From Parcubacteria group bacterium Gr01-1014_8 (lineage in GTDB: Bacteria; Patescibacteriota; Minisyncoccia; Phycocordibacterales; UBA2100), in the NCBI GenBank assembly GCA_007376385.1, contig VMGC01000001.1, positions 96,001-160,000 on the forward strand: 64,000 nucleotides of DNA. Reading direction: 5' to 3'. Shown here piece by piece: positions 5,181 through 21,394 of the stretch. Under the pieces are notes generated by a model. It did no database searches and was not told where the DNA came from. It saw only the letters and a program-made list of their open reading frames with translations. Both the position numbers and the translations under genes were made by a program. How positions within the stretch are numbered: position 1 is the stretch's first letter; every line of letters starts with the position of its first letter.

Positions 5181-5215
5181 CCAAAGACACGCGAAAGCGC
5201 TGGTATAATTCAAGC

Positions 5216-6055
5216 GTGGAAGGCGGAAGACCATCCTCCATTGTTATTACTGCCGGGCTTGCGGCAGCGATTTTGCTTTCCGCCATCGGCTGGCAGCTCG
5301 GCGGATACTGGGCCAAACATCACGTCGTAAAAAAACCAATTCAATTTGATAGAGCGCCAGATGAGACATCGAAAGCGCCCGTCATCGGCTCGATAAGCAA
5401 CGACTGGCGCGATGAGTTAGCGAGACTCGGACTAGTAAATACCACGACGGACGCAGCCGTTGCGACCTCCTCGGATCCACTCGCGACATTTGGCGATACC
5501 ATTGCTCAAGAATTCCTTACCACCTACCTGTCACTCAAACAATACGGCAGCTATTCCCCGGAAAAAGCTGCGCAACTAGGCAAAGCGCTCGGAAGTAATG
5601 CTCATGTTCCGACAAATTTCACATTACACGCAAGCAGCGAGCTGACCCTTGCTTCCGATACGTCAAAGGAGCGTATCTTGAAATATCGAAGCGAAATGCG
5701 AGATGCCTTACGCATGTTGGTAAATGGCTCGCCGCCAGAATTCGAAACATTGGCGCTCTATATTGAGACAAAAAACCCCGAGCGTCTCATTGAACTCTCG
5801 GAAGCGGCCGAACGCTATCGAGATGCGGAGAAAAATGCCCTCGCCGTGGTCGTGCCAAGCGATGCTGCTGAGCTTCACATCCGGGTCGTTAATGCGCTCG
5901 GTGCATATGGAAGCGCAGTGGATCAACTTGTCCGCAGTATGGCGAGCCCCGTCACCACTTTAGCGGTTTTGAGAACGTATAATGAGGCTGAGCGCGAAAT
6001 GCTCTACGCATTTGACGCGCTTGCTAGCTATTATGTACGAAAGAGTAGTCAGTAA
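5216..6055 (+). CDS. Hypothetical membrane-anchored protein
   Basis: Long ORF with N-terminal TM (ITAGLAAAILLSAIGW), tataat -10 near 5203. Confidence 0.5.
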   Translation: MEGGRPSSIVITAGLAAAILLSAIGWQLGGYWAKHHVVKKPIQFDRAPDETSKAPVIGSISNDWRDELARLGLVNTTTDAAVATSSDPLATFGDTIAQEFLTTYLSLKQYGSYSPEKAAQLGKALGSNAHVPTNFTLHASSELTLASDTSKERILKYRSEMRDALRMLVNGSPPEFETLALYIETKNPERLIELSEAAERYRDAEKNALAVVVPSDAAELHIRVVNALGAYGSAVDQLVRSMASPVTTLAVLRTYNEAEREMLYAFDALASYYVRKSSQ

Positions 6056-7697
6056 TTTTTACGGTGCCGCATTGCTGCTTCTTCTTGTAGCAATGATCTT
6101 TGGTTTTGACCTTCCGAATGCCCATGCCGCAGAATGCCGAGACGGAAAACTCTATGAAAAACTCGCCGACGGCACTGAAGTTCAAGCGGGCACGTGTGCA
6201 GACGGCAAAGATGTACCCGCATCCCAAAATGCACTTTTAAGAGACGGCATCTTTGGATGCAATGCGAGCAAATACGCAAACATCGGCACACTTTCTGCAG
6301 TTGGCGGCATCTATGTACCGGTCAACGACGCCGCGGTGACCATCAACACTGGTTATTTGGTTTACAAAGAGTGTATTCTCGACGGGGTTGTTTCAAAAAT
6401 AAGCGAAGCGGCCCGCACCGAGCTTGCAGGCACCATTATTCGCCAAATCAATACCGGCCGTGCGGGGCAAGCTCTCTTTGTAAAAAATATCGCGAAAGAA
6501 TTGGACGCACGCGCTGACAGGGTTGCCCTCACGGCTGTAGACAACGCGAATATCGGGGTGATGTGCCCGGCATTTCGCGATGATGTTCGTCGTATTCAGA
6601 TCCGCCGCTACTTGTCCGCCCGCAACTCTCCTAACTCCAGCTTTGCCTGCTCGGTTCCCGTTTCGGCAACAGACCATATAACTGCAATTCGCGCTGGGAT
6701 ATACGCGCCCGACGTACTCGATGCGCTCATCACGCCGGGAAATGACCCGTACACGGCTGATATGATCTTCAACGAATATATGAACGCTTCGATAGCAGAA
6801 GACGCCTATAACCAATATGCGCAGTGGGGATGGGGAAACGGCTTCTACCCGGTGACAACCGAAACAGATAATCCATTCGATGAAGAAACAATGACACCGG
6901 GCCATCTCGTCGCTCAAGGCGCCGCGCAGGTCATCACCGGCGGTTTTCGTTGTCTTGAAGAGGCAGACGAGCCGAGCAAAATATGCGGACCGATGTTCAA
7001 CGCGCTCGCTCAAGCAGCTCTTGACCGCGGTCTCACAGGATTAACACAGGCGCAGAACGGCTTGCCCTCGTATGTAAGCCGCATGGTGTCTGAAGCATCC
7101 GCTGCCGTTCGTCAAGAAGCGGTGAACGCCGCGCTCAATATACTCCTCACATCGAGGCAGATAGAAGCGGCGTACAAACGCGCAAAAGAGGGAATAGCGG
7201 AAGTTTTGACGGGGGCTATAAACAGACTTCGGAGTGCAGAACGAGCTTGTTGGGAGCTCATCATTCCTAAGGTAGAAGAATACGCGAGCACGCAAGGCGC
7301 CCAAATACAGGTCGCAACGACCACCGAATTCTCCCAGGCAGTCATCAACGACCAAATATTGCCCATCGCAGAGTTGGTCGCAGCAGACTTGCAAAAAGCA
7401 GAAAGGGCACTGCAGCAAATTGATAGCCTGATCGCGAGCGTATCGAATAGCGCATCTGCAACAAACCAGAGGGCCGCCCTTGAGCGGCTTGACACCATGG
7501 TCGCAAACGGCCAGCTTCACACTTCGAGTGATGCGACGAACGCTAATAAGCAATTAGAGGATGTGACTGCAAGCGCGAACACTCTCGTTGAAGAGACATT
7601 ACGGGCGTGGGGCGACTCAACTGACCCAAATGTCGGCTGGTGCAACGTGAACAACCCCGCCGTCATCGAGAAGTGGTTCAACAAATGGAAGAAATAA
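6030..7697 (+). CDS. Large secreted hypothetical protein (T4SS-locus associated)
   Basis: Signal peptide AALLLLLVAMIFGFDLPNAHA, Cys-containing N-terminal part, 555 aa. Start chosen at internal Met 6030 to give the signal peptide. Confidence 0.5.
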   Translation: MMYERVVSNFYGAALLLLLVAMIFGFDLPNAHAAECRDGKLYEKLADGTEVQAGTCADGKDVPASQNALLRDGIFGCNASKYANIGTLSAVGGIYVPVNDAAVTINTGYLVYKECILDGVVSKISEAARTELAGTIIRQINTGRAGQALFVKNIAKELDARADRVALTAVDNANIGVMCPAFRDDVRRIQIRRYLSARNSPNSSFACSVPVSATDHITAIRAGIYAPDVLDALITPGNDPYTADMIFNEYMNASIAEDAYNQYAQWGWGNGFYPVTTETDNPFDEETMTPGHLVAQGAAQVITGGFRCLEEADEPSKICGPMFNALAQAALDRGLTGLTQAQNGLPSYVSRMVSEASAAVRQEAVNAALNILLTSRQIEAAYKRAKEGIAEVLTGAINRLRSAERACWELIIPKVEEYASTQGAQIQVATTTEFSQAVINDQILPIAELVAADLQKAERALQQIDSLIASVSNSASATNQRAALERLDTMVANGQLHTSSDATNANKQLEDVTASANTLVEETLRAWGDSTDPNVGWCNVNNPAVIEKWFNKWKK

Positions 7698-7707
7698 CAA
7701 TGAGCAT

Positions 7708-10104
7708 ATGAAGGCTTTCTTGAGAACAGCGAAATATAAAGGGAAGACCATGACGGTAATACTCTTATTATTGTTCTTGTTCCCAATTATTCTCGGAATA
7801 TTTACCCCCGCGACCGCAGCGGCGGCTGAGGAATGTCCCCCAGGCCAAATTTGGGATCCTGGTGAAGATTATGGCGCAGATGTTAGTAGACCAGGTAGGG
7901 CTCCCGGCTGTGTACCAAACACGGCCGAAAACAAAACCGTAATCGCAACGCAGGAAGCACGTCCGGACACAACGGTCGGCCCTGGCGAATGTACTCGCTG
8001 GTGGCATCCCCTCACGCAGCCCATCAACTGCGCGTTCATACCGCTCGCAAGCTGGTCTGGGGCACTCTTCATGTCATTTGGAGCCGCGCTACTGCAGGCG
8101 TCCGGGGCTGTTTTCAATACTCTGGTGAAGTGGATAGTTGTCGAGTTCGGCAGCACCATACAAACGCTCGGCCTCTTGGACGGAATACACCAGGCATGGG
8201 AGATCTTGCGTGACATTTCGAACATCGTCATCATCGGCATGTTCGTCTTTATTGCCATATCGATGATACTGGGGAACGAGACATTCGGAGCAAAAAAATT
8301 AGTCGCGCACGTCCTCATCATCGCCGTCCTGATAAATTTTAGCTTGCTTTTCTCGAAGCTCATTATTGATGCTGGAAACTTTACTGCATACCAATTTTAC
8401 AAAGCCATGGGGGGTACCGCAGACGATGAGTTCGACATTGCGGGCAGATTTTACAGCGTCGTCGGTATAACAAGCGCATGGGACAGCTTTGCCGTTGCCG
8501 AACGCTTCGCGCGCGGCTCGCAAAAAGCAGGTACAAAGCCAGGAGAAAGTAGCACGACGGGTAACAATTTTGCCGCCGGCGTAAGCGGTTTCTTGTACGG
8601 CATATTCGGCGGGATGCTGCTCATCGCATCCGCTATCGTTTTATTCTACGGCTCATATCTCATCATCGTCCGAGCCGTCCTCCTCGTTTTTCTTATGCTT
8701 GTTTCCGCACTCGCATTCGCATCATGGCTCGTACCAAAAATGAACAGTGGCAGCATCAGTTTCAGTGCATGGTGGAAATCGCTCATCAATGCTTCAGTGT
8801 TCGCGCCGCTCCTTATGATCATGCTCTACGTATCACTCCTCATCATGAACCCTGCAGCAGGAAAACGAGAAGGGAGCTTAGGCGCTATCGCAGGTAACCC
8901 GGAAAAAGTGGGGCAAAACTGGAAGACGCTTATCATTTTTATCTTCGGCATCGGCATGCTCTACGTGTCGTTCAAGGTCGCGAACACATTCTCGAGACAG
9001 ATAGCCGGGTTTAGCGTAGCGAGCGGCGCCGTCGGCAAGGCATTTGGAGCAACGGCGGGTACAGCCGGACTTTTTGGCCGCTACTCGCTGGGACTCCTAG
9101 GCTCACAGCTCGCTGCGAGAACTGGGCTTGGCACAATGGACGGCCTCAAAGGCAGGATAGCGCGTGCTGGATTAAGTTCTCTTGCTACAGGCAGTTTTGA
9201 CGTGCGTCGCATCCCTGGCGTTGCCTCCGGCGCAAAATACGGCGTAGATTTTGGTAAAGCAAAAGGAGAAGGCGGATACCTCAAGGCTGTTTCCGATAGA
9301 GAAAAGAGAATAATCGCAACGGAAGCAGGATATCGCCAGATGGTGACCACAAAAACAAACTCCGACTTTAAGGAAGAGCGTTTGCTTGAAGAACAGAAGC
9401 AGGCTGCCGCGAAGCGAATTAGAGAACAAGAAGCTCGTGCGGCAGAGCTTTCTAAACACCCTGCAGTCGCAGGCAAGCCTGCTGAAAAAGCTCAGCCAAC
9501 TCCAGCACCAGCCACGCAAGGCGCTTACGGTAGAACGCAGACCGCGCGCGATATCGCGGACGCTCAGCAACGGCAAGCGCAAACTGCAGCAGCTGGAAAA
9601 GAAGAAGGAAAGATCTCGACAGACGCAGAAACGGCTCGAATTGCTCGCATCGAACGGGGTCTACGAGCAGAAGAGAAACAAAGCTATCTTACCGAAGGCC
9701 AAGTAAGGTCTGCCGCACAAGCTACTCTTGCCGCAGGCGTTGCACCGACCGATGAAAACAGGGCAGTCGTTGAGGAATTACGAAAGGTGCGAGAATCCAT
9801 CACTGCCGAAAAAGAATTGCTAGCGCGTCTGGAAAAAACACCCACATCAAGAGATATCCGTGGACAGAAGTTCGATGACGCTATGAGGAATAGCTTCTAC
9901 TTCTTGGACTTCAGCAAACACCGCACGGCTGCTCGCGCAGAAAAGATAGCAGAGACGGCACGCAAGACAGACTATCAGAAGCTTGCTGAACGATTGGCAA
10001 AAGATATGGAGGATGTCGCCAAAAAAGAAGGAAAAAAGACTGCCGACGTAGTAAAAGAGGCAGTCGAAAAAGCGGCAGGGCCTGCTAAGGAGGCCGGACA
10101 CTAA
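7708..10104 (+). CDS. Polytopic membrane protein, VirB6/TrbL-like T4SS channel component with long charged/coiled C-terminal tail
   Basis: Signal peptide, Cys-rich periplasmic N-terminal segment, at least 6 TM helices (res ~120-420), then ~350 aa A/E/K/R-rich hydrophilic tail. Sits immediately upstream of PrgI-like and VirB4. Confidence 0.5.
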   Translation: MKAFLRTAKYKGKTMTVILLLLFLFPIILGIFTPATAAAAEECPPGQIWDPGEDYGADVSRPGRAPGCVPNTAENKTVIATQEARPDTTVGPGECTRWWHPLTQPINCAFIPLASWSGALFMSFGAALLQASGAVFNTLVKWIVVEFGSTIQTLGLLDGIHQAWEILRDISNIVIIGMFVFIAISMILGNETFGAKKLVAHVLIIAVLINFSLLFSKLIIDAGNFTAYQFYKAMGGTADDEFDIAGRFYSVVGITSAWDSFAVAERFARGSQKAGTKPGESSTTGNNFAAGVSGFLYGIFGGMLLIASAIVLFYGSYLIIVRAVLLVFLMLVSALAFASWLVPKMNSGSISFSAWWKSLINASVFAPLLMIMLYVSLLIMNPAAGKREGSLGAIAGNPEKVGQNWKTLIIFIFGIGMLYVSFKVANTFSRQIAGFSVASGAVGKAFGATAGTAGLFGRYSLGLLGSQLAARTGLGTMDGLKGRIARAGLSSLATGSFDVRRIPGVASGAKYGVDFGKAKGEGGYLKAVSDREKRIIATEAGYRQMVTTKTNSDFKEERLLEEQKQAAAKRIREQEARAAELSKHPAVAGKPAEKAQPTPAPATQGAYGRTQTARDIADAQQRQAQTAAAGKEEGKISTDAETARIARIERGLRAEEKQSYLTEGQVRSAAQATLAAGVAPTDENRAVVEELRKVRESITAEKELLARLEKTPTSRDIRGQKFDDAMRNSFYFLDFSKHRTAARAEKIAETARKTDYQKLAERLAKDMEDVAKKEGKKTADVVKEAVEKAAGPAKEAGH

Positions 10105-10108
10105 ATCT

Positions 10109-10657
10109 ATGGCTGACGATATAAAAAAGGTACTTGAGGAGCGTTTCAATTCACTGCCAGATGCCGTGCAAAAGGCCATTCTTTCCGGCCATATCCAGGA
10201 AAAATTTCAGGAGTTGGCAAGAAAGCACCAGCTGCATGTCGACGCGTGGCAACAAGTCGAGAACAAAATAATGCTGACGGTGCTCGGCGTCATACAGCCT
10301 GAAGAGCTGGTCGACAAAATAGTGAACGAAACCAATGTTGGTGCGGAGAAGGCGGCTACCATCGTGAGCGACATCGCTCTTTCAGTCTTTAAGCCAATTC
10401 GGGAAGAACTTGAGAGAGAGTTGGGACATCCTCAAGCGAGAGAAGAAGTCATATCGGACATAGAGAAAGTCCGACAAGAAGTGTTATCACAGGCGCCTGC
10501 ACCCCAAGTAGCGGCTCCTGTACCTGCAACACCCCCAAATCCGCTGCCGACTGAAAAAGTTGCCCGCGCTCCCGCTTCAGGCGCATACAAACCAGGAGAG
10601 ACGAGCGTCGAGAGAGCAGATGTTCACGACGACCCTTACAGGGAGCCGCCTCTCTGA
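10109..10657 (+). CDS. Hypothetical soluble protein with Pro-rich C-terminus
   Basis: ORF starts 5 bp after the preceding stop. No recognised domain. Confidence 0.4.
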   Translation: MADDIKKVLEERFNSLPDAVQKAILSGHIQEKFQELARKHQLHVDAWQQVENKIMLTVLGVIQPEELVDKIVNETNVGAEKAATIVSDIALSVFKPIREELERELGHPQAREEVISDIEKVRQEVLSQAPAPQVAAPVPATPPNPLPTEKVARAPASGAYKPGETSVERADVHDDPYREPPL

Positions 10658-10797: not shown

Positions 10798-11298
10798 ATG
10801 CAATTTCAAGTACCCCAATTTATTGAGGTCGAGGATAAGATATTCGGTCCACTCACCTTTAAGCAATTCGTCTATGTCGCAGGAGGCGGCGGATTGGCCT
10901 ACCTCATCTGGCGGGTACTCCCCATCTATCTCGCGGCGCCGCTCGTCGCAGGCTCCCTTGGTCTCGGAGCAGCCCTCGCTTTTATGCAGTACAACGGGCG
11001 CCCCTTCATTCTCGCTCTTGAGCACGGCTTTTATTTTTTTCTGCGTTCGAAACTCTACTTATGGAATAATCAGCGGCGAAACAAGAAGCTGGCGGCGTCT
11101 GCAAACGAGCAACATCAACAGACACCAGAAATTTATGTGCCGAAGCTGTCGGAGAGCAGGTTGCACGAACTTGCGTGGAGCCTCGACATCAAGGAGCGGA
11201 TCGCTGCTGGTGTTGCGAATGAGGATGATAGAAATGAAATGCCTCGTTCCCGGCTCGTTGCTCCTATTCGAACCGCCCGCAGCGCTTTAGTGCAATAA
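10798..11298 (+). CDS. PrgI-family protein (VirB3-like) of Gram-positive-type T4SS
   Basis: MQFQVPQFIEVEDKIFGPLTFKQFVYVAGGGGLAYLI...MQYNGRPFILALEHGFYFFLRSKLYLW: N-terminal VP..ED.IFG.LT.RQF motif, two TM helices, NG.P...Y pattern. Position directly before VirB4. Confidence 0.6.
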   Translation: MQFQVPQFIEVEDKIFGPLTFKQFVYVAGGGGLAYLIWRVLPIYLAAPLVAGSLGLGAALAFMQYNGRPFILALEHGFYFFLRSKLYLWNNQRRNKKLAASANEQHQQTPEIYVPKLSESRLHELAWSLDIKERIAAGVANEDDRNEMPRSRLVAPIRTARSALVQ

Positions 11299-11304
11299 TA
11301 GAGT

Positions 11305-11976
11305 ATGTCAGAGATCACATCATCAATACCGCGCGTGAGCAGCAAAGCAACCCAAGATTTTGTGCCCGTGCATGAAGTTCGGGATGGCGTCGTTGTCCTC
11401 AAAGATGGAGGCCTTCGAGCAATACTCCTAGCCTCGTCATTGAACTTCGCACTGAAATCCGAGGACGAGCAAACCGCATTTATCGTTCAATTCCAGAATT
11501 TTCTCAACTCACTGGATTTTTCCGTACAGATATTCGTGCAATCACGAATGCTCGACATACGCCCCTACATCGCCACCTTGGAGTCACAGTTCAAACAACA
11601 ATTGGACGACCTTATGCGCATACAGATACGCGAATACATCGGCTTCATAAAAAGCTTCACTGAAGCCGCTAACATCATGACGAAGAATTTCTTTATCATC
11701 GTGCCGTACTCGCCCGCGATCATCCAAACCGGTCAAGGAATACTCGGCAAATTGCCCTTTACCGGCAAAAAGAAAAATTCTGAAGAAGAGAACCGCACTT
11801 TTGAAGAACAAATATCGCAGCTCGAGCAGCGCATCTCCATCGTCCAGCAGGGGCTCATCCGCACCGGCGTCCGCACCGTCCAGCTTGGAACTGAGGAAGC
11901 GATAGAATTGATGTACAAAATGTTCAACCCCGGTGAAGAAGGGAAGCCAATGGCCGTTCCTGAATCGCAAAAATAG
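11305..11976 (+). CDS. VirB4 (TraE/Orf16-type) N-terminal domain, encoded as a separate ORF
   Basis: VRDGVVVLKDGGLRAILLASSLNFALKSEDEQTAFIVQFQNFLNSLDFSVQIFVQ...KNFFIIVPY matches the characteristic N-terminus of Gram-positive VirB4 homologues. Ends TAG at 11974-11976, one nt before the ATG of the ATPase ORF. Confidence 0.55.
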   Translation: MSEITSSIPRVSSKATQDFVPVHEVRDGVVVLKDGGLRAILLASSLNFALKSEDEQTAFIVQFQNFLNSLDFSVQIFVQSRMLDIRPYIATLESQFKQQLDDLMRIQIREYIGFIKSFTEAANIMTKNFFIIVPYSPAIIQTGQGILGKLPFTGKKKNSEEENRTFEEQISQLEQRISIVQQGLIRTGVRTVQLGTEEAIELMYKMFNPGEEGKPMAVPESQK

Positions 11977-11977
11977 T

Positions 11978-13969
11978 ATGGCGCTCCTCGATCTATTCAA
12001 GAAAAAAGGGCCGCAGTCCGTAGTCTTGCCCGTATTGCCTGAAGAGATATTCCGCACGGGAGTTCTTGACCTTCAAGACGTCATCGCACCTCACGCTCTC
12101 CGCATTTCACCTCGCGAACTCGACCTTGGGGAAAAGATCGCACGCACATTCTTCGTTATCTCGTATCCGCGTTTTCTTACGACAGGATGGTTCGCGCCCA
12201 TCATTAACATGGATAAAATAATCGACATTTCGATATTCATTCACCCGATGGATACGAATGAAATGCTTCGAAAATTCCAAAAGAAAGTGGCAGAGGTTCA
12301 GAGCCAGATATCAACGCGGGAAGGGAAGGGCATGGTCAGAGACCCTATGCTTGACACCGCCTACGCTGACCTTGAAAAATTGCGTGATTCACTCCAGCAA
12401 GCACAGGAGCGCATCTTTGAAGTAGGATTGTATCTCACCATTTACGGCTCCACTCGCGAAGAAGTTGATAAGATAGAAAGCGAGGTACGCTCAATTCTTG
12501 AATCGCGCCTTGTGTATATCCGTCCCGCGCTATTCCAGCAAGAGCAAGGCTTCAGAAGCGTTCTGCCGACGGCAACCGATGAACTGAATGTGCACACAAA
12601 ATTGAATTCAGCCCCTCTTTCATCGGTATTTCCGTTCATTTCCTTCGACCTGACGTCCGACCGGGGAATTCTATATGGCATAAACCGCCATAATTCATCT
12701 CTCATTCTTTTTGATCGCTTCTCGCTTGAGAACTACAATTCAGTGACCTTTGCCAAGTCCGGTGCGGGAAAATCCTACACGACAAAACTTGAGATCCTGC
12801 GTTCGTTGATGTTCGATACAGAAGTCATCGTCATCGACCCCGAACGTGAATACGAATATCTCGCAGAGACGGTCGGCGGACGTTATTTCAATATCTCACT
12901 CTCCTCGGAGCACCACATCAATCCCTTTGACTTGCCGATACCGCGAGAAGATGAGAACCCCGGGGATGTGCTGCGCAACAATATCATCACGCTTGTCGGA
13001 CTTTTCCGTATCATGCTCGGAGGTTTGACGCCCGAAGAAGACGCCATCATCGACAAGGCCATCACCGAAACGTATGCCCTGAAAGACATCACGCAAGATG
13101 CGAATTTCGCAGCAGTCGAGCCGCCGCTTCTTTCCGACTTCGAACTCGTACTCTCCGGCATGGAGGGCAGCGATTCACTGGTTCAGAGACTCTCGAAATA
13201 TACAAAGGGCACGTGGTCAGGATTTATGAACCGCCCGACGAACGTTGACATGAATAAAAAATTGGTCGTCTTCTCGGTGCGAGACATGGAGGACGACCTG
13301 AAACCTGTCGCTATGTACATCATCACGCACCACATCTGGAATACCGTGCGAAAGGAACTCCGTAAACGACTCCTGGTGATCGATGAGGCATGGTGGATGA
13401 TGCGTTCCCAAGATACTGCGTCTTTCCTGTTTTCAATCGCAAAACGTGGACGTAAATACTATCTTGGAATCTCTACCATCACGCAAGACGTATCAGACTT
13501 TTTGAACTCCCCGTATGGAATACCGATGATAACCAACTCTTCTATCCAGCTCCTGCTCCGCCAATCGCCAACATCGGTCGACCTCGTGCAACAGACATTC
13601 AAATTGTCAGACGAGGAAAAATACCTGCTCTTGGAATCCGATGTAGGTGAAGGCATTTTCTTCGCAGGGCTGAAGCACGTAGCCATAAAAGTCATTGCTT
13701 CGTATACGGAAGACCAAATAATCACGTCCGACCCATCGCAGATACTTGCCATCCGCAAAGCGAAACAGGAACTGGTCTTGGCAAACGAGCCACAGAATGT
13801 AGCCCAGACGACCCCGATATCTCAAACCAAGGAAGCGGCCGCTATACTCCAAAGCTCGGCGTTAAAACCCGCTGAAGTGCCAAATACGCCAACGCCGCAG
13901 GCATCACCAACATCCGCGCCAAATACTACCCGACAAGTAGCATCAATTTTGGAGAGACCGGGTAATTGA
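11978..13969 (+). CDS. VirB4-family T4SS ATPase (ATPase domain ORF)
   Basis: Walker A FAKSGAGKSYTTK, Walker B RLLVIDEAWWMM, conserved YPRFLTTGWFAPII segment. Start taken at MALLDLF (11978), immediately after the upstream ORF stop. Confidence 0.85.
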   Translation: MALLDLFKKKGPQSVVLPVLPEEIFRTGVLDLQDVIAPHALRISPRELDLGEKIARTFFVISYPRFLTTGWFAPIINMDKIIDISIFIHPMDTNEMLRKFQKKVAEVQSQISTREGKGMVRDPMLDTAYADLEKLRDSLQQAQERIFEVGLYLTIYGSTREEVDKIESEVRSILESRLVYIRPALFQQEQGFRSVLPTATDELNVHTKLNSAPLSSVFPFISFDLTSDRGILYGINRHNSSLILFDRFSLENYNSVTFAKSGAGKSYTTKLEILRSLMFDTEVIVIDPEREYEYLAETVGGRYFNISLSSEHHINPFDLPIPREDENPGDVLRNNIITLVGLFRIMLGGLTPEEDAIIDKAITETYALKDITQDANFAAVEPPLLSDFELVLSGMEGSDSLVQRLSKYTKGTWSGFMNRPTNVDMNKKLVVFSVRDMEDDLKPVAMYIITHHIWNTVRKELRKRLLVIDEAWWMMRSQDTASFLFSIAKRGRKYYLGISTITQDVSDFLNSPYGIPMITNSSIQLLLRQSPTSVDLVQQTFKLSDEEKYLLLESDVGEGIFFAGLKHVAIKVIASYTEDQIITSDPSQILAIRKAKQELVLANEPQNVAQTTPISQTKEAAAILQSSALKPAEVPNTPTPQASPTSAPNTTRQVASILERPGN

Positions 13970-14027: not shown

Positions 14028-14468
14028 ATGGATGAAAATCCTCTAGACCAGGTACCAAGTGACGAGGTCGCTGAGTTATCGGTCATGGATCCGCAAGAGG
14101 AGCCTGACTTTCCATTCGTCATCGTGGCAACGGCCGTTCTAAAAGACCTGCTAGACGGATTGGATCTATCTATCATCTTCATAATCCTGACGACTGTATT
14201 ATCCGTTCTGCTGACAATAATTTTGTTCCTATGGGTTGTCGGTAAATTGGGTGGCGGCTGGTGGAAGCGGCAGTTAATAAGATGGTTGTGGACTCGGTAC
14301 GTAGCAACAATTCTTTTAGAATTTATCCCGTTTCTCAAGATGGTACCAGCGGCCACAATTTTCGTTCTCATGGCCCATCACCACGAGAAAAAATCTGTGA
14401 AATTATTCAATGCAGCCTTGGAAGCCTTCCGCGACGGATTATTCAAGGCGCTGCGACAAAAAAACTGA
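14028..14468 (+). CDS. Small polytopic membrane protein (T4SS-locus associated)
   Basis: 3-4 hydrophobic helices, acidic N-terminus. Confidence 0.45.
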   Translation: MDENPLDQVPSDEVAELSVMDPQEEPDFPFVIVATAVLKDLLDGLDLSIIFIILTTVLSVLLTIILFLWVVGKLGGGWWKRQLIRWLWTRYVATILLEFIPFLKMVPAATIFVLMAHHHEKKSVKLFNAALEAFRDGLFKALRQKN

Positions 14469-14569
14469 ACGCCTGAAGGGACCCCCTGGTGGCTGCAGAT
14501 CGTTTGCCAATTGCCTGGAATTCACCGCCCTAACATGCAAAACAAATAAGGGATGAAGTCGGCTGTATA

Positions 14570-15619
14570 ATGATGCCAATGTCATCGCGGTTGTTCTTCA
14601 GTATTCCGGCGTTCGCTCTTTTGTTACTTTTTGCTGCGCCCGTATACGCACAATACATCCTTCCTCCTTCTGCTGACCCAATATTATTCAAGCTTAGTCC
14701 TTCGAATCCCGAGCCCGGCTCAATCGTCCATATTTTTGCAAATAGTCTGACATTTGACCTCAAAAAGACTCACGTAACATGGTACGTAAATGACGCTCTG
14801 CTACTTGAAGGCGACGGTCTTACGGAAGTTGATGTGACGCTTGGCTCAACAGGTTCTGCAACTCACGTCATTGCTCTCGCTGAGAAAGACGGCGAGACGC
14901 TGGCCAGCGCAGAAGTATTCATGCGCCCCGCAGAAGTTGATCTCTTGTGGGAAGCGAATTCATATGTTCCCCCCTTCTATAAGGGGAAACATCTCGCTTC
15001 ACCAAATTCGGTAGTTCGTGCAGAAGCCTATGCGCGATTGCGCGATCAAGAGGGAAATCTGATACTGCCTTCCGAAATCGAGTATACATGGCACCGTAAC
15101 GGCGCACTGCTCGCGTCCCAATCCGGCCGAGGGAAATCTTACGCCTCTTTCCCTGCTCCGCTCCTATTCGGAAGCGACACAATATCAGTCGAGGTAACCT
15201 CGATAGATGAGAGTGTGAGTGCTAGCGCGACAACTATTATTCCCTCCGTGGACCCATTTGTCGTCCTCTATCAGGAACATCCTCTGTTTGGGATCTTTTA
15301 TCACGCAGCTGTTGCACGTGCTGCATTCCTGCCAGACGTCGAAGCGACGTTCGTTGCCATTCCATATTTTGCGAGCAGCATCACGAGCCACTCCGACGCA
15401 AGACTATTATATGCCTGGCGCGTGAACGACAGGCCAATAACAGTGGATGGAGCAGAGCCTCATCGCTTGACCATCAATGCTGAAAATTCAACGGGAGAAG
15501 CGCACGTCGAAGTCGCTGTTTCGCACCTCACTAACTACTTTATGGACGCTCGCGGAGCGTGGGACATAGCATTCGACAGAATACCGGGCGGGGACCCATT
15601 CTCCACAAACGGACTATGA
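14570..15619 (+). CDS. Secreted hypothetical protein
   Basis: Signal peptide MMPMSSRLFFSIPAFALLLLFAAPVYAQ. Stop overlaps next start (ATGA). Confidence 0.5.
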   Translation: MMPMSSRLFFSIPAFALLLLFAAPVYAQYILPPSADPILFKLSPSNPEPGSIVHIFANSLTFDLKKTHVTWYVNDALLLEGDGLTEVDVTLGSTGSATHVIALAEKDGETLASAEVFMRPAEVDLLWEANSYVPPFYKGKHLASPNSVVRAEAYARLRDQEGNLILPSEIEYTWHRNGALLASQSGRGKSYASFPAPLLFGSDTISVEVTSIDESVSASATTIIPSVDPFVVLYQEHPLFGIFYHAAVARAAFLPDVEATFVAIPYFASSITSHSDARLLYAWRVNDRPITVDGAEPHRLTINAENSTGEAHVEVAVSHLTNYFMDARGAWDIAFDRIPGGDPFSTNGL

Positions 15620-16980
15620 TTCATACGGATATTTCCCGCATATTCAAGTACGCAAGTATCGGGCTCATCTTCGTTCTTATTATAGGGCTTGGCGGATGGT
15701 ACATATACTTGCGCACGCAAACATCATCAATTGACGCGGCGTCAAGCGGACGCGGGTTCCGCGCGAGCATTCCCACTTCAAGTTCGCTGGGGAGTACTTT
15801 CACCAACATAATTTCCGGATTCAGAAGAACCCCCAGTGAAGCGAGCGAAAATCCGCCAGGAATAAGCCCGCAAAGCTTTTCGAGTGGTATTTCTAACTTT
15901 TCCGAAGGCGTAAAAACTGCGTTCGGTAACTTGATATCAGGACTCGGCTCCCTCGTCCCTGGTTCCGCAAGCTCAACGCCGATAAAACAAACCCCTCGTC
16001 TTTGGCAGGTGCAAAAAAGCCCCGTCGCTGGATTCAGGTTCATCGCTGCAACAACGACAACGCTTCGCTTTATGGAACGCTCAAGCGGCTATATTTTCGA
16101 CGTGAACCCGGCGACAGGGAAAACAACGCGAGTAACAAATACTCTTATCCCGAAAGTATATGATGCACGGTTCGCCAGGGACGGTTCTCCGGTTATAAAA
16201 ACTCTTGAAAACGACGTGCGGACAACCTATAGCGCGACATTAGCATCAAGTTCGAACGAAACTCTTGCCACACTCGTTCTAACGCCGCTAGGAAATAACG
16301 TGGCAGATGCAGTACCAAACGCTACATCACGCGAGCTTCTCTCGCTCATCGAAAGTGAGAATGGATCCTCTATTGTGCGCTCAGGATGGAACGGCTCTAA
16401 ACCAACGACGCTCTTTAGCTCATCGCTCTCGGGATGGAGAATGTACTGGACCTATGACAACAAGGTCTACATCGCGCAAAAAGCGGCGACAGGAGTCCCA
16501 GGTAACGCGTACGAACTTCTTGGCAATGGAGAACTTGTTCCACTAGCGCGTTCTGTTTCGGGGCTCACGATAGTGCCAAAAGCAACTTCTACTGCTCTGC
16601 TTATTGCTTCTGATGCTGGCGTTGTGTCTACCCTTGTCAGGCCAAATGCTGACACAGCGTTCATAATACTACCCGTGAAGACGATAGTCGACAAATGTCT
16701 ATGGGCTCCAGGAAATAATCTGATCGCGTATTGCGCAGTGCCATCGAGCATTCCTTCAAAACAATTCTTGGATGAGTGGTATCGAGGGGAGATACATACG
16801 GCTGACTCGTGGTGGCGCGTTGACGCGAGCGCAGGCTCGGCGCAATTGCTGTTTTCGCCCGCGCGCGAGAGCGGCTCTTCGCTTGATGCGGAAACCCCGA
16901 GAATAGACAATAGCGGGACGTACATAGCATTCCTCGATTCACATGACAAGTCACTGTGGATACTGCGCATCAATGAATAG
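15616..16980 (+). CDS. Membrane-anchored hypothetical protein, possibly beta-propeller-like
   Basis: Start MIHTD with ATGA overlap, single N-terminal TM (IGLIFVLIIGLGGWYIYL), Ser/Thr-rich linker, long extracytoplasmic domain. Confidence 0.5.
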   Translation: MIHTDISRIFKYASIGLIFVLIIGLGGWYIYLRTQTSSIDAASSGRGFRASIPTSSSLGSTFTNIISGFRRTPSEASENPPGISPQSFSSGISNFSEGVKTAFGNLISGLGSLVPGSASSTPIKQTPRLWQVQKSPVAGFRFIAATTTTLRFMERSSGYIFDVNPATGKTTRVTNTLIPKVYDARFARDGSPVIKTLENDVRTTYSATLASSSNETLATLVLTPLGNNVADAVPNATSRELLSLIESENGSSIVRSGWNGSKPTTLFSSSLSGWRMYWTYDNKVYIAQKAATGVPGNAYELLGNGELVPLARSVSGLTIVPKATSTALLIASDAGVVSTLVRPNADTAFIILPVKTIVDKCLWAPGNNLIAYCAVPSSIPSKQFLDEWYRGEIHTADSWWRVDASAGSAQLLFSPARESGSSLDAETPRIDNSGTYIAFLDSHDKSLWILRINE

Positions 16981-17872: not shown

Positions 17873-18376
17873 TTATACATCGCTCGTATATCTAATCACG
17901 ACTCGTCGACTGCGTCCCTCCCCTTGTGATTCTGTTTTAACGTTCGGAGAATCTGCGAGCGTCGTGTGCACAATGAGGCGCTCATAGGCACTCATGGGAG
18001 AGAGCTCCACATCGTATTGAAATGAACGAGCTCGTTCTGCCATCATCAAGGCTTTCGCCTGCAAGTCCTTTATCTGTTTTGAACGATAGTCATTTACGTC
18101 CACCAAAAAATGAGTCTCGTTTGAATTTTCATCAGGTGCGATCGGGACAGTGCGATTGCCCATGAGTCGCTTTTCGACTATTTTTTTTACCAGCTGATCT
18201 ATCGCATGTACCGTATCTCCGTGCATCCCGATAAGGGAGCGCGCATCGTCCGCCTGGATAGCAAATACCGATTGCCCGGCTATTTCTTCGTACTTGACAC
18301 CGGAGTACGCCGCACCCATCGCTGAAAGCGTCTCTTTTAGGACTGATCCGACGATCTCATTGAGCTCAGACTTCAT
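17873..18376 (-). CDS. jag: Jag/KhpB-like RNA-binding protein (KH + R3H domains)
   Basis: C-terminal R3H signature LSPMSAYERLIVHTTL...GEGRSRRVVI. Downstream of yidC in the conserved rpmH-rnpA-yidC-jag order. Confidence 0.8.
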   Translation of the reverse strand: MKSELNEIVGSVLKETLSAMGAAYSGVKYEEIAGQSVFAIQADDARSLIGMHGDTVHAIDQLVKKIVEKRLMGNRTVPIAPDENSNETHFLVDVNDYRSKQIKDLQAKALMMAERARSFQYDVELSPMSAYERLIVHTTLADSPNVKTESQGEGRSRRVVIRYTSDV

Positions 18377-18420
18377 CCAGCATTCTTATCACAAAAAGAG
18401 AGCGCCTCCAAATTTCGCCC

Positions 18421-19188
18421 TCAAACCCCCGGCGCCGTAGGCTGCCTGACCTGTTCTGTTGCTTTTTTTTCTTTAAGACGTCGTCCCATGGCAAGCTCCT
18501 GCAGAATCATGAACGTGTTGCTCGCGACCCAGTATAACGGAACAGCAGCGGAAACGGTGTATGCGATGCCACCGATCATGATAGGGAGCACGTAACGGGC
18601 CTGCAGATCGAAACTCCGCGCCATATCCGCAGAGAAAGAGCCGTCCGATTGCGTGGCAGGTTTGCGCGGTCCCATCGAGAGCCGTGCATATATCAATTGC
18701 GTAATCCCGGCAAAAAACGCGAGCAGAATGCTATGCGAACCCATGTTGATGAGACCCAGAAATTCCATGTTCACACTTTCCGGGGTGGGTACGAATGAAT
18801 ACAGATATTCTGGGTGCACATTCGGCAACCCTCCCTTCCAAAAAACCCAGTAGAGGCCGAACAAAATGGGCAGCTGTAAAAGTACTAGAAAAAAGGAGGC
18901 GAACGGACGAATGCTTTTCTCACGATACAGAGCAAAGATGGCGCGCGCCTGTTCCTCCTGCTTGTCCTTGAATTTCTTTTTTATTTCGTCGATTTCCGGA
19001 GCGACTTCTCTCATCGCCGCTTGCGTGCGCACAGCTTGGCGCGAAAGGGGAAAGAGAATGACGCGGACAACGAGGGTCAGAATGACGACCGCGATACCAA
19101 CATCATGCAGAGGAACAACATCTACAAAAAAAACAAGCCCGTTGTAGAGCGGGGTGTAAACGAGTGCGTTGAATATAGCAGAGATCAT
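18421..19188 (-). CDS. yidC: Membrane protein insertase YidC/Oxa1 family (short form)
   Basis: Five TM segments, conserved LPILFGLYWVF and PLYWVASN motifs, synteny with rnpA. Confidence 0.85.
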   Translation of the reverse strand: MISAIFNALVYTPLYNGLVFFVDVVPLHDVGIAVVILTLVVRVILFPLSRQAVRTQAAMREVAPEIDEIKKKFKDKQEEQARAIFALYREKSIRPFASFFLVLLQLPILFGLYWVFWKGGLPNVHPEYLYSFVPTPESVNMEFLGLINMGSHSILLAFFAGITQLIYARLSMGPRKPATQSDGSFSADMARSFDLQARYVLPIMIGGIAYTVSAAVPLYWVASNTFMILQELAMGRRLKEKKATEQVRQPTAPGV

Positions 19189-19529
19189 TCGGCGTATTGT
19201 ACTGCCTCTCGTATCAGCGACGCAATGTCCTTCGAGAGTTCCGCTCTCGGCGCCTTCAGGGCAGCGGGTTTAATGTGCAACACGAACGCAACAGGTCTTT
19301 TAATGTGGGCAAGCGCTGCACGAGCTAATTCTCTGCACGCGCGTTTCGCAGAATTTCTGTCTACTGCACGCTTCGCGGTTTTTTTTGAAATAACACACGC
19401 GCACTTAGGGCCCGCCGCCTCTTGGAGGATGATTGTCATCAACGAATAGTACTTGCCGCGAAAATGTGCCGAACGAACGCTTGAAAGATGTTTCAAGTCA
19501 CTCCGGCTAATGCGTCTTGCAGCAGGCAT
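19185..19529 (-). CDS. rnpA: Ribonuclease P protein component
   Basis: Basic ~114 aa protein, VISKKTAKRAVDRNSAKRACRE motif, directly follows rpmH. Confidence 0.85.
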   Translation of the reverse strand: MPAARRISRSDLKHLSSVRSAHFRGKYYSLMTIILQEAAGPKCACVISKKTAKRAVDRNSAKRACRELARAALAHIKRPVAFVLHIKPAALKAPRAELSKDIASLIREAVQYAE

Positions 19530-19664
19530 CTAGAGCGCCAACGTGGCTCGGCCCTTCCTGCGGCGGCGCATAATGATGCGTCTGCCGTTCTTGGTCTTTA
19601 GTCGCGCTCGAAATCCGTGTGTCCGCGCGCGTTTGCGCTTCTTTGGTTGGTATGTTCGTCGCAT
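19530..19664 (-). CDS. rpmH: 50S ribosomal protein L34
   Basis: Hand translation of minus strand gives [44 protein letters not shown] (44 aa, below ORF-track cutoff). Confidence 0.9.
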
Positions 19665-19816
19665 CGGGCCAACATATCATAATGAAGAATATTTGACCAC
19701 TCCGAAAATACACGTCGACCAAATATCCCCACTCTATCCACAGCTTGTGAACATACCTCCTTGAGCGCGTATGCGCTTCACGTCTCCTACTTCACGCGTA
19801 TAATGACTCAACTCTC
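19665..19816. promoter_or_regulatory. rpmH/dnaA divergent intergenic region with DnaA box
   Basis: cTATCCACA at 19734-19742, ttgtgaaca nearby, tataat at ~19797 before dnaA. Confidence 0.5.
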
Positions 19817-21175: not shown

Positions 21176-21394
21176 CGCATGTGGATAACAACTGTATGAA
21201 CACTGGATGGAATTGGGGAGAAGAAAAATAAAATACTATCCACATCTTCTTCATGTCACCATTACATTATCTATCCACAAACCAAAATATAAAATATCCA
21301 AGGAGCAGGTCATAAAAATCACTTATTCACCTATCCACACTACCAACAACAGCAACAGTATTTATATACAATAAGTATTAATACGATCTCTACT
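21176..21394. promoter_or_regulatory. Probable oriC: DnaA-box cluster plus AT-rich unwinding element between dnaA and dnaN
   Basis: TGTGGATAA 21180-21188 (perfect, rc), cTATCCACA at 21237, 21281, 21331, TTATtCACc at 21324, AT-rich tract 21355-21390. Confidence 0.7.

What the first reader, a model, noticed from the sequence alone, without database searches (positions are those of the whole stretch)
11305..13969. VirB4 encoded as two adjacent ORFs: an N-terminal domain ORF stops 1 nt before the ATG of the ATPase ORF
ORF 11305-11976 carries the characteristic N-terminal region of Gram-positive VirB4 homologues (DGVVVLKDGGLRAILLASSLNFALKSEDEQ...KNFFIIVPY). It terminates at TAG (11974-11976). The next base is followed directly by ATG (11978) of an ORF holding the rest of VirB4, with Walker A GAGKSYTTK and Walker B VIDEAWW. 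The two are in different frames (+1). This is either a genuinely split VirB4 (two polypeptides), a programmed frameshift, or a single-base assembly error. The tidy stop-N-ATG junction argues for a real split or translational coupling rather than random decay.
Basis: seen in the sequence. Interest (0 to 1): 0.55.

Follow-up and report, generated by a model that had tools for sequence, protein, structure and literature searches.

The report
Two-gene VirB4: TrsD-like protein plus ATPase
The secretion-system motor VirB4 really is encoded here as two separate, conserved genes. This is the normal, already published arrangement (a TrsD-like protein followed by VirB4) in this group of ultra-small bacteria and in some staphylococcal plasmids, so it is not an error or a frameshift.

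Summary
ORF1 (11305-11976, 223 aa) ends in TAG, one T follows, and ATG 11978 opens ORF2 (663 aa, Walker A and B present) in the +1 frame.

It is not an assembly error, a programmed frameshift or decay:
- In 77 of 77 related genomes where both genes could be scored, the two genes are separate. Spacers run from 1 to 411 nt, in all three relative frames, and the VirB4 start (M-A-L-x-D) is conserved.
- An independent assembly whose ORF1 is 92% identical has the same 1-nt spacer.
- Both ORFs are under strong purifying selection.

ORF1 is a homologue of TrsD/TraD of pSK41/pGO1. Its model has the fold of the first half of the VirB4 N-terminal domain: the top 14 PDB matches are all TrwK/VirB4. ORF2 lacks exactly that part. 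Natural fused homologues of about 790 aa (Colwellbacteria-type) are colinear with ORF1+ORF2. The split point matches that of pSK41 TrsD/TraE.

Quinonero-Coronel et al. 2025 already report TrsD homologues beside virB4 as the most abundant T4SS component of Patescibacteria. Interest is low.

The most interesting by-product lies in relatives, not in the window: IVS-like hairpin elements are inserted at this junction, some carrying a 23S_rRNA_IVP gene.

The parts
10798..11298 (+). PrgI / VirB3-like small membrane protein (166 aa), the gene immediately upstream of ORF1 with a 6-nt spacer
   Evidence: Pfam PF12666 PrgI, E 5.4e-10, 40.1 bits against a cut-off of 27. The same gene order PrgI -> TrsD-like -> VirB4 is seen in L082, L087 and L088, and as trsC-trsD-traE in pSK41.
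11305..11976 (+). ORF1: TrsD/TraD-like protein (223 aa). It is the detached first half of the VirB4 N-terminal domain (precomputed Pfam PF26593 'TraC-like').
   Evidence: NCBIfam matches to VirB4 N-termini and to NF041427 TrsD/TraD. 7931 homologues; the top 120 are all stand-alone proteins of 203-229 aa. hhalign against pSK41 TrsD gives probability 82%, E 1e-5, residues 15-209 against 33-217. AF2 model pLDDT 89; the top 14 Foldseek PDB hits are all TrwK/VirB4. pN 0.08-0.18 against saturated pS.
11974..11980 (+). Junction: TAG stop of ORF1, one T, ATG start of ORF2 (a +1 frame change)
   Evidence: In relatives the spacer is 1-411 nt in all three relative frames. An independent assembly with 92% identical ORF1 has the same 1-nt spacer.
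11978..13969 (+). ORF2: VirB4-type ATPase lacking the first N-terminal subdomain (663 aa). It has a variable leader (residues 1-~30), the second half of the N-terminal domain (~30-228), the ATPase C-terminal domain (~229-584) and a low-complexity tail (585-663).
   Evidence: NF045971 CD1110-family VirB4, 358.5 bits (cut-off 325), profile positions 185-733 of 752. Pfam P-loop_TraG, AAA_10 and DUF87. PDB 4ag5 VirB4 C-terminal domain, E 9.7e-42, residues 229-584. pSK41 TraE is 25% identical, E 7e-37, aligned 5-617 against 7-572.
12761..12787 (+). Walker A motif GAGKSYTTK (ORF2 residues 262-270)
   Evidence: The G-x-G-K-S-Y columns are invariant in the alignment with 63 fused homologues.
13376..13396 (+). 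Walker B motif VIDEAWW (ORF2 residues 467-473)
   Evidence: The D-E-x-W columns are invariant in alignment A2.
13730..13966 (+). C-terminal tail of ORF2, rich in Pro, Thr, Ser, Gln and Ala (residues 585-663). It is absent from the fused homologues.
   Evidence: The AF2 model has pLDDT below 50 here.

Best explanation
These are two real, separately translated genes of a chromosomal type IV secretion system in a Parcubacteria/Kaiserbacteria-type patescibacterium.

ORF1 is a TrsD/TraD-like soluble protein of about 25 kDa. It corresponds to the first ~200 residues (first subdomain) of the VirB4 N-terminal domain. ORF2 is a VirB4 ATPase that begins just after that subdomain. The break lies in a variable linker, between the conserved '...ELxYxxYNP' end of the TrsD-like domain and the 'D-x-IAP' motif of VirB4. 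It is at the same position as in the TrsD/TraE pair of staphylococcal plasmid pSK41.

Shown here:
- the two-gene arrangement is conserved;
- both genes are under purifying selection;
- their homology is complementary and colinear with natural fused VirB4s;
- ORF1 has the VirB4 N-terminal fold.

Inferred, not shown:
- The two polypeptides probably reassemble non-covalently into a complete VirB4 N-terminal domain.
- The ORF1 part probably sits at the membrane-proximal face. In the R388 structure, VirB3 wraps around the VirB4 N-terminal domain. By analogy, ORF1 would contact the VirB3-like PrgI encoded just upstream and so dock the ATPase hexamer to the channel.
- In this genome the 1-nt spacer may allow some termination-reinitiation coupling, but relatives show this is not required.
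For: Two genes everywhere:
- 77 of 77 related loci have an ORF1 stop and a separate virB4 start. An ATG lies at the projected start in 70; a nearby in-frame ATG was taken in the other seven. The N-terminus is a conserved M-A-L-x-D.
- Spacers are 1-411 nt. Relative frames are 35/22/20.
- Four distant Patescibacteria (36-44% identical) show PrgI -> TraC-like -> VirB4 with spacers of 3-24 nt.
- An independent assembly with 92% identical ORF1 has the same 1-nt spacer.

Family size: 7931 homologues, of which the top 120 are all 203-229 aa. There are 2364 clusters at 50% identity, nearly all stand-alone.

Selection: pN is 0.08-0.18 for ORF1 and 0.065-0.12 for ORF2, against pS of 0.70-0.90.

Complementarity:
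- NCBIfam profile coordinates are complementary.
- The fused homologue P0255 aligns over residues 1-210 with ORF1 (40% identity) and over 226-796 with ORF2 (56%).
- 63 fused homologues align colinearly with ORF1+ORF2 at 47-54% identity.

Structure:
- ORF1 model: pLDDT 89.1. The top 14 PDB hits are all TrwK/VirB4; the next hit has E 0.28.
- Concatenated model: it matches full-length TrwK at E 2.7e-28, and the junction has low pLDDT of 46-57.

Same split point as pSK41.

Literature:
- PMC12102498 reports 2,272 TrsD homologues in Patescibacteria, 1,664 of them beside virB4, and notes that the homologue in Ca. Southlakia epibionticum is listed as essential.
- The R388 VirB4 N-terminal domain is residues 15-400, and VirB3 wraps around it (PMC9259494).
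Against: - No direct evidence shows that the two polypeptides bind each other or PrgI.
- The concatenated AF2 model is only moderate (pTM 0.50) and gives no interface information.
- ORF1 scores far below the curated NF041427 TrsD cut-off (24.6 against 200 bits). BLASTP against pSK41 TrsD is not significant. Homology to TrsD therefore rests on profile methods.
- A local Pfam-A scan gave no hit for ORF1, although the precomputed annotation lists PF26593.
- No same-species independent assembly of this exact junction was found.
Confidence: 0.87

Rival explanations
1. A single-base sequencing or assembly indel split a normally continuous VirB4 gene of about 790-885 aa.
For: The two ORFs are 1 nt apart in frames that differ by +1. 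No same-species independent assembly was found to check the exact bases.
Against: - 77 of 77 related genomes, four distant ones and pSK41 have the same two genes, with a stop codon, a variable spacer and a conserved ATG start.
- An independent assembly with 92% identical ORF1 has the same 1-nt spacer.
- Genuinely broken VirB4 genes look different. L084 and L085 show internal deletions and a lost N-terminal ORF.
- ORF2 has about 25 extra N-terminal residues relative to the fused forms, which a simple indel would not produce.
Confidence: 0.01
2. A programmed +1 ribosomal frameshift at AAA-TAG (11971-11976) makes a fused full-length VirB4, in whole or in part.
For: Skipping T11974 after Lys-AAA would read AGT-ATG-GCG in the ORF2 frame. 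Fifteen of 77 relatives also have a 1-nt spacer. Natural fused homologues exist.
Against: - The frame relationship is not conserved: 35/22/20 across the three relative frames.
- Spacers reach 411 nt and can contain a whole gene. In many loci the ORF2 frame carries stops 3-15 nt upstream of the ATG.
- No conserved slippery or stimulatory motif is present.
- The closest relatives have 2-nt or ~450-nt spacers.
Confidence: 0.02
3. The locus is a decaying VirB4 pseudogene, and ORF1 is a leftover fragment.
For: None beyond the split itself.
Against: - Both ORFs are under strong purifying selection, with synonymous sites saturated.
- ORF1 homologues are 78-92% identical across many species.
- The catalytic motifs are intact.
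- The TrsD homologue is reported essential in Ca. Southlakia epibionticum (PMC12102498).
Confidence: 0.01
4. ORF1 is a paralogous extra copy of the VirB4 N-terminal region with its own function, and ORF2 is a self-sufficient VirB4.
For: The literature describes TrsD only as 'remotely homologous to the N-terminal portion of VirB4', with no assigned function.
Against: - ORF2 starts at profile position ~185 of 752 (CD1110) and ~275 of 792 (TIGR00929), so it lacks the region that ORF1 covers.
- Fused homologues contain each part once, in the order ORF1 then ORF2.
- The concatenated model aligns with full-length TrwK over about 825-915 alignment columns.
Confidence: 0.05
5. In this genome ORF2 translation depends on termination-reinitiation at the TAG-T-ATG junction (translational coupling), which fixes a 1:1 output of the two halves.
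For: The spacer is 1 nt and there is no Shine-Dalgarno motif upstream of ATG 11978. 38 of 77 relatives have spacers of 5 nt or less.
Against: - The genome rarely uses Shine-Dalgarno motifs at all (8 of 37 loose matches), so the lack of one says little.
- 30 of 77 relatives have spacers of 70-411 nt with a stable hairpin or an inserted gene, so coupling is not required for function.
Confidence: 0.3

Closest known systems
TrsD/TraD + TrsE/TraE of staphylococcal conjugative plasmids pGO1/pSK41 (MPF_FATA, pGO1 subclass)
   Same: - Same gene order: VirB3-like (TrsC/PrgI), then a ~225-aa TrsD-like protein, then a ~670-aa VirB4. The sizes are 227 + 672 aa against 223 + 663 aa.
- The spacer is short (14 nt in pSK41).
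- The split point is equivalent. TraE aligns with ORF2 from residue 5 against 7. The TrsD profile alignment covers 33-217 against 15-209.
   Different: - pSK41 is a conjugative plasmid with a relaxase and coupling protein. The window is chromosomal, next to dnaA.
- Sequence identity is low. VirB4 is 25% identical. TrsD is detectable only by profiles and falls below the NCBIfam cut-off.
Patescibacterial chromosomal T4SS as described by Quinonero-Coronel et al. 2025 (PMC12102498) and Wang et al. 2023 (Ca. Southlakia epibionticum)
   Same: - A TrsD homologue adjacent to virB4, with PrgI/VirB3 nearby.
- No relaxase was seen among the annotated neighbours.
- The locus is close to dnaA/dnaN, yidC and jag. 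The window is simply one more instance.
   Different: Nothing essential. That paper does not spell out that the accompanying VirB4 lacks the TrsD-equivalent region. It also does not mention that some lineages carry the fused form.
Fused VirB4 of Colwellbacteria-type Patescibacteria (e.g. P0255, 797 aa)
   Same: - Orthologous locus: PrgI - VirB4 - small protein - Jag - YidC - RnpA - DnaA - DnaN.
- Colinear with ORF1+ORF2 at 40% and 56% identity.
   Different: It is a single polypeptide. Its linker is about 25 residues shorter and it has no C-terminal low-complexity tail.
TrwK/VirB4 of plasmid R388 (PDB 7o41, 7o43, 8rtb, 8rtd)
   Same: The ORF1 model matches part of TrwK, and the concatenated model matches the whole chain. 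ORF2's ATPase domain matches by sequence.
   Different: TrwK is one 823-aa chain from a diderm system. Identity is only 13-17%. Only one short strand is detectable by sequence profile.
VirB3-VirB4 fusion proteins of some conjugative systems
   Same: They show that the covalent linkage between the membrane-anchoring parts and the ATPase of this module is evolutionarily flexible.
   Different: They go in the opposite direction, by fusion rather than fission. No PrgI-TrsD or PrgI-VirB4 fusion was found here. The longer TrsD-like proteins examined carry only Gln/Pro-rich low-complexity extensions.

Membership tests
VirB4/TraC/CagE T4SS ATPase (ORF2) | Walker A and Walker B motifs in a P-loop_TraG/AAA_10 C-terminal domain | tested here: met
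   GAGKSYTTK at residues 262-270 and VIDEAWW at 467-473. PF19044 E 1.4e-23, and PF12846. PDB 4ag5 VirB4 C-terminal domain E 9.7e-42.
VirB4/TraC/CagE T4SS ATPase (ORF2) | Score above a curated family cut-off | tested here: met
   NF045971 (CD1110-family VirB4-like ATPase) scores 358.5 bits against a cut-off of 325.
VirB4/TraC/CagE T4SS ATPase (ORF2) | Complete N-terminal domain within the same polypeptide | tested here: not met
   ORF2 starts at profile position 185 of 752 (CD1110) and 275 of 792 (TIGR00929). The missing part is supplied by ORF1, which covers positions 2-118 and 3-182.
VirB4/TraC/CagE T4SS ATPase (ORF2) | Encoded next to a VirB3-like gene within a T4SS cluster | tested here: met
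   PrgI (PF12666) at 10798-11298. A polytopic membrane protein lies at 7708-10104.
TrsD/TraD family (NF041427) / Pfam PF26593 TraC-like (ORF1) | Sequence-profile membership | tested here: inconclusive
   - NF041427: E 1.9e-5 but only 24.6 bits against a cut-off of 200.
- BLASTP against pSK41 TrsD is not significant.
- hhalign of the family profile against pSK41 TrsD: probability 82%, E 1.1e-5, 174 columns.
- Precomputed PF26593 is listed on all homologues, but the local Pfam-A scan gave no hit.
TrsD/TraD family (NF041427) / Pfam PF26593 TraC-like (ORF1) | A stand-alone ~200-250-aa protein encoded between the VirB3-like gene and virB4 | tested here: met
   223 aa, with PrgI 6 nt upstream and VirB4 1 nt downstream. 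The position is the same in pSK41 and in L086-L089.
TrsD/TraD family (NF041427) / Pfam PF26593 TraC-like (ORF1) | Homology and fold of the N-terminal part of VirB4 | tested here: met
   NCBIfam VirB4 profiles match their N-terminal positions. Foldseek's top 14 hits are all TrwK/VirB4, probability 1.0. ORF1 is colinear with residues 1-210 of fused P0255.
Programmed +1 frameshift site (prfB-like) | Conserved frame relationship and conserved slippery or stimulatory sequence across orthologues | tested here: not met
   Relative frames are 35/22/20, spacers are 1-411 nt, and no shared motif is present.
Pseudogene or assembly artefact | Relaxed selection, the split absent from orthologues, or irregular breakpoints | tested here: not met
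   pN is far below the saturated pS. The split is present in 77 of 77 loci. Truly broken genes (L084, L085) look different.
Physical TrsD-VirB4-VirB3 complex | Direct interaction of the two polypeptides and of ORF1 with PrgI | not testable with these tools
   This is only an inference. It rests on the fused homologues and on the R388 structure, where VirB3 wraps around the VirB4 N-terminal domain (PMC9259494). No multimer prediction or interface output was available.

The most novel reading that the evidence does not exclude
The split may be ancestral to the whole patescibacterial T4SS and shared by descent with pGO1/pSK41-type plasmids. The ~790-aa VirB4 of Colwellbacteria-type lineages would then be a secondary re-fusion.

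On this reading the TrsD-like protein is a separable adaptor that binds VirB3. Detaching it would let cells vary the stoichiometry or timing of ATPase docking. The junction between the two cistrons also acts as a recurrent landing site for IVS-like hairpin elements, some carrying a 23S_rRNA_IVP gene, which may separate the two messages by RNase III cleavage.
Probability: 0.3. Interest if true: 0.3.

Novelty: already known. Interest (0 to 1): 0.12.

Why it matters
Very little is new for this locus. It is one ordinary member of a family with thousands of instances, and the family has been published.

The result is useful mainly for annotation. Adjacent 'TraC-like' and 'VirB4' ORFs in Patescibacteria should not be merged, flagged as frameshifted or called pseudogenes.

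There is a small conceptual increment. TrsD plus a TrsE-type VirB4 is a true complementary fission of the VirB4 N-terminal domain, at a variable linker. Split and fused forms coexist at the orthologous locus within Patescibacteria. That gives a natural experiment on which part of VirB4 contacts VirB3 and the membrane.

Tried and rejected
- PrgI-TrsD (VirB3-VirB4N) fusions. Some TrsD-like representatives have 90-150 extra N-terminal residues or 100-220 extra C-terminal residues. The sequences show only Gln/Pro/Ala-rich low-complexity extensions, not PrgI. Rejected.
- Sequence search of ORF1 against the PDB: nothing meaningful. The family profile against TrwK gave only a 28-column strand match at 1.5% probability. 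The fold comparison was needed instead.
- Same-junction independent assemblies. Two pattern scans of JGI metagenome contigs, one exact 36-mer and one degenerate, found nothing. The closest independent evidence is the gene table for P0002, with 92% identity and a 1-nt spacer; no DNA was available for it.
- A conserved docking motif at the ORF2 N-terminus. Close relatives share M-A-L-x-D-L-F-K-K-K and pSK41 TraE has F-L-K-K-K-K. In distant Patescibacteria, however, the leader is 10-45 residues long and not conserved. Not supported.
- IVS-like hairpins or an IVP gene in the window's own T4SS region: none.
- Guglielmini 2014 main text: no explicit mention of TrsD. The 'remote homology to the VirB4 N-terminus' statement is cited from PMC12102498.
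- The upstream and downstream cluster ORFs (298, 279, 571, 798, 182, 146, 349 and 473 aa) gave no significant Pfam or NCBIfam family.
Full report
OBSERVATION. ORF1 runs 11305-11976 (223 aa) and ends in TAG (11974-11976). A single T follows at 11977, and ATG 11978 opens a 663-aa ORF that ends at 13969, one frame over. The quoted motifs are all present, including Walker A (GAGKSYTTK, ORF2 residues 262-270) and Walker B (VIDEAWW, 467-473). The mechanical ORF list extends ORF2 upstream to GTG 11933, but comparison with relatives shows that ATG 11978 is the conserved start.

WHAT THE TWO ORFS ARE. ORF2 is a VirB4-type ATPase.
- It scores above the curated cut-off of the CD1110 VirB4-like family (358.5 against 325 bits). 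The match covers profile positions 185-733 of 752 only.
- On TIGR00929 the match covers positions 275-724 of 792.
- Its ATPase domain matches the solved VirB4 C-terminal domain 4ag5 at E 9.7e-42.

ORF1 matches the N-terminal positions of the same VirB4 profiles: 2-118 of 752, 3-182 of 792 and 100-234 of 894. It also matches, weakly, NF041427, the TrsD/TraD family of small conjugation proteins. The two ORFs are therefore complementary pieces, not duplicates. Immediately upstream, with a 6-nt spacer, lies a PrgI/VirB3-like gene.

IS THE SPLIT REAL? Yes.
- ORF1 has 7931 homologues in the 90%-clustered protein collection. The top 120 are all stand-alone proteins of 203-229 aa, 78-100% identical, from many independent assemblies of Kaiserbacteria, Paceibacterota and Parcubacteria. 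The exact match is Parcubacteria group bacterium Gr01-1014_8.
- Among 1.84 billion representatives there are 2364 clusters with E up to 0.001. 149 of the best 150 lack a VirB4 ATPase part: most are 146-264 aa, and the longer ones (up to 443 aa) that I inspected carry only low-complexity extensions.
- I fetched 80 loci from different species genomes and located both genes in 77. In all 77, ORF1 ends in a stop codon. virB4 starts at a conserved M-A-L-x-D N-terminus: an ATG lies at the projected start in 70 loci, and a nearby in-frame ATG was taken in the other seven.
- The spacer ranges from 1 to 411 nt. It is 1 nt in 15 loci, 5 nt or less in 38, and 70-411 nt in 30.
- The relative frame is spread over all three possibilities (35/22/20).
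- In many loci the virB4 frame has a stop only 3-15 nt upstream of the ATG.
- The gene table of an independent assembly with 92% identical ORF1 shows the same 1-nt spacer. The closest species genome (90%) has a 2-nt spacer. Another 90% relative has a whole extra gene inserted.
- Four much more distant Patescibacteria (36-44% identity) have PrgI -> TraC-like -> VirB4 with spacers of 3-24 nt.
- Both ORFs are under strong purifying selection. pN is 0.08-0.18 (ORF1) and 0.065-0.12 (ORF2), with synonymous sites saturated at pS 0.70-0.90.

This excludes an assembly indel, a decaying pseudogene and a conserved programmed frameshift. As a contrast, two VirB4 genes that really are broken (L084, L085) show internal deletions and loss of the N-terminal ORF call.

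COMPLEMENTARITY AND STRUCTURE. A natural fused form exists.
- P0255 (797 aa) sits in an orthologous locus: PrgI - VirB4 - small ORF - Jag - YidC - RnpA - DnaA - DnaN.
- Its residues 1-210 align with ORF1 (40% identity, E 9e-47). Its residues 226-796 align with ORF2 residues 28-597 (56% identity).
- The fused form is a whole lineage. 118 of the top 120 clusters are 775-807 aa, and those carrying a taxon name are Candidatus Colwellbacteria, 'Patescibacteria group' or 'Parcubacteria group'.
- Concatenated ORF1+ORF2 aligns colinearly with 63 of these at 47-54% identity. The only junction difference is about 25 extra residues, the ORF2 leader.

An AlphaFold2 model of ORF1 is confident (pLDDT 89.1, pTM 0.79). 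Its top 14 Foldseek hits in the PDB are all TrwK/VirB4 chains of plasmid R388 (probability 1.0, TM 0.38-0.57 normalised to the query), and the next hit is at E 0.28. A model of the concatenated chain is only moderate (pLDDT 71, pTM 0.50). It still matches full-length TrwK at E 2.7e-28 over about 825-915 alignment columns, and it has low confidence (pLDDT 46-57) exactly at the junction.

In R388 the VirB4 N-terminal domain is residues 15-400, and VirB3 wraps around it (PMC9259494). ORF1 therefore corresponds to roughly the first half of that domain. The break falls in a variable linker inside the N-terminal domain, not at the boundary between the N- and C-terminal domains.

RELATION TO KNOWN SYSTEMS. 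pSK41 of Staphylococcus aureus has trsC (VirB3-like), trsD (227 aa) and a 672-aa VirB4 (TraE), with a 14-nt spacer.
- TraE aligns with ORF2 almost end to end: residues 5-617 against 7-572, 25% identity, E 7e-37.
- The ORF1 family profile aligns with TrsD over residues 33-217 against 15-209: probability 82%, E 1e-5.
- Both small proteins end just after an 'ELFYxxYNP'-like motif. Both ATPases begin with a short variable leader before the first conserved block.

The split point is therefore the same.

The arrangement is already in the literature. Quinonero-Coronel et al. 2025 (PMC12102498) report TrsD, 'remotely homologous to the N-terminal portion of VirB4', as the most abundant T4SS component in Patescibacteria. 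They found 2,272 homologues, 1,664 of them next to virB4, and note that the homologue in Ca. Southlakia epibionticum is listed as essential. They also note the proximity of these clusters to dnaA/dnaN. The window shows the same thing, with Jag, YidC, DnaA and DnaN at 17873-22495. That paper does not discuss the fact that the partner VirB4 lacks this region, nor the fused lineages. This is a small increment, not a new finding.

MECHANISM.
- Shown: there are two conserved cistrons, each under selection. Together they are colinear with a complete VirB4.
- Inferred: the two products reassemble non-covalently. ORF1 would form the subdomain that contacts PrgI/VirB3 at the membrane. ORF2 would provide the rest of the N-terminal domain and the hexameric ATPase.
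- Translation: the genome uses few Shine-Dalgarno motifs (8 of 37 loose matches), and many start codons are preceded by TATAAT-like boxes. The absence of such a motif before ATG 11978 is therefore uninformative. Termination-reinitiation coupling is possible in this genome. It cannot be required in general, because 30 of 77 relatives have long, structured spacers.

DIRECTION OF CHANGE. I built a rough neighbour-joining tree of the VirB4 core (556 columns, 20 sequences).
- The patescibacterial sequences are monophyletic (100 of 100 bootstraps).
- The fused clade is monophyletic (93 of 100) and nested among split lineages.
- Split pSK41 TraE lies outside them.

This suggests that the fusion is secondary. 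The sampling and method are too thin for a firm claim.

BY-PRODUCT. In relatives, not in the window, the 70-100-nt spacers between the two genes are inverted repeats. They fold into long hairpins (dG -12 to -35 kcal/mol, z -2.7 to -6.0). In L033, L035, L046 and L090 the corresponding insert carries a 117-121-aa gene of the 23S_rRNA_IVP family; in L033/L035/L046 it is flanked by the same kind of repeat arms, while the L090 flanks were not examined. These look like intervening-sequence-like elements, full or 'empty', that have landed between cistrons of the T4SS operon.

VERDICT. It is ordinary for the lineage and already described at family level. Interest is low.

Noticed in passing
Related loci, not the window: e.g. 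L041 ~6670-6750, L024, L017, L069 (spacers of 70-100 nt); L033 6652-7062, L035, L046 (411 nt); L090 1203-1650; L072 4592-4924: In 30 of 77 related species the trsD-like/virB4 spacer is 70-411 nt long, and most of the 70-100-nt spacers are inverted-repeat elements. Six that I folded form stable hairpins (z -2.7 to -6.0). In L033, L035, L046 and L090 the insert carries a 117-121-aa 23S_rRNA_IVP (PF05635, weak bAvd) gene. They look like intervening-sequence-like elements, full or 'empty', inserted between cistrons, and might be RNase III sites. Relatives with 90-92% identical TrsD differ in whether the element is present.
   Followed up: partly
window 17873-22495: The T4SS cluster lies about 4-6 kb from jag (R3H), yidC, dnaA and dnaN, that is, next to the presumed replication origin. 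The fused-VirB4 locus L082 has the same synteny. This agrees with PMC12102498.
   Followed up: yes
window, many gene starts (e.g. 4284, 5216, 19817, 18421-19188 minus strand, 60034): Few genes have a Shine-Dalgarno-like motif (8 of 37 by a loose test). Many start codons sit 5-12 nt downstream of a TATAAT/TACAAT-like box. This suggests leaderless or Shine-Dalgarno-independent initiation in this genome.
   Followed up: no
window 13730-13966 (ORF2 residues 585-663); also proteins P0159, P0163, P0176, P0208, P0229, P0236: ORF2 carries a 79-residue Pro/Thr/Ser/Gln/Ala-rich tail that the fused homologues lack. Many TrsD-like proteins in other Patescibacteria carry Gln/Pro-rich extensions of 90-220 residues at either end. 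Their function is unknown.
   Followed up: partly
L084 1212-1668 and L085 1170-2053: Two MAGs in the fused-VirB4 (Colwellbacteria-type) clade have a disrupted N-terminal region, with internal deletions and a frame change, so that only a 600-aa VirB4 is called. These could be real pseudogenisation or misassembly. They were used here as a contrast to the tidy conserved split.
   Followed up: partly
window 11305-11973: The local Pfam-A hmmscan returned no family for ORF1. The precomputed annotation of all its homologues lists PF26593 ('TraC-like'). This is probably a difference in library version or threshold.
   Followed up: no
window 4284-10657 and 14028-16980: Eight ORFs flank PrgI-TrsD-VirB4 on the same strand: 298, 279, 571, 798, 182, 146, 349 and 473 aa. 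None has a significant Pfam or NCBIfam family (four had no match up to E 0.001, and two had only sub-threshold matches). The 798-aa protein (7708-10104) is a polytopic membrane protein. A 739-aa protein two genes upstream of PrgI in L088 carries a faint TrbL_3 hit, so the 798-aa protein may be VirB6-like. ORFs 5216-6055 and 5982-7697 overlap by 74 nt, and 14570-15619 and 15559-16980 overlap by 61 nt, so some starts may be mis-set.
   Followed up: partly
window 3201-4145 (minus strand): A 313-aa protein with a Lamin Tail Domain (PF00932, E 6e-16) lies between ksgA and the T4SS cluster.
   Followed up: no
record titles of loci L002-L080: Many of the closest loci are titled 'uncultured Candidatus Saccharibacteria bacterium' in their public records. 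Their TrsD and VirB4 are nonetheless 75-94% identical to those of Kaiserbacteria and Paceibacterota MAGs. These are probably generic or incorrect taxon labels on the records.
   Followed up: no
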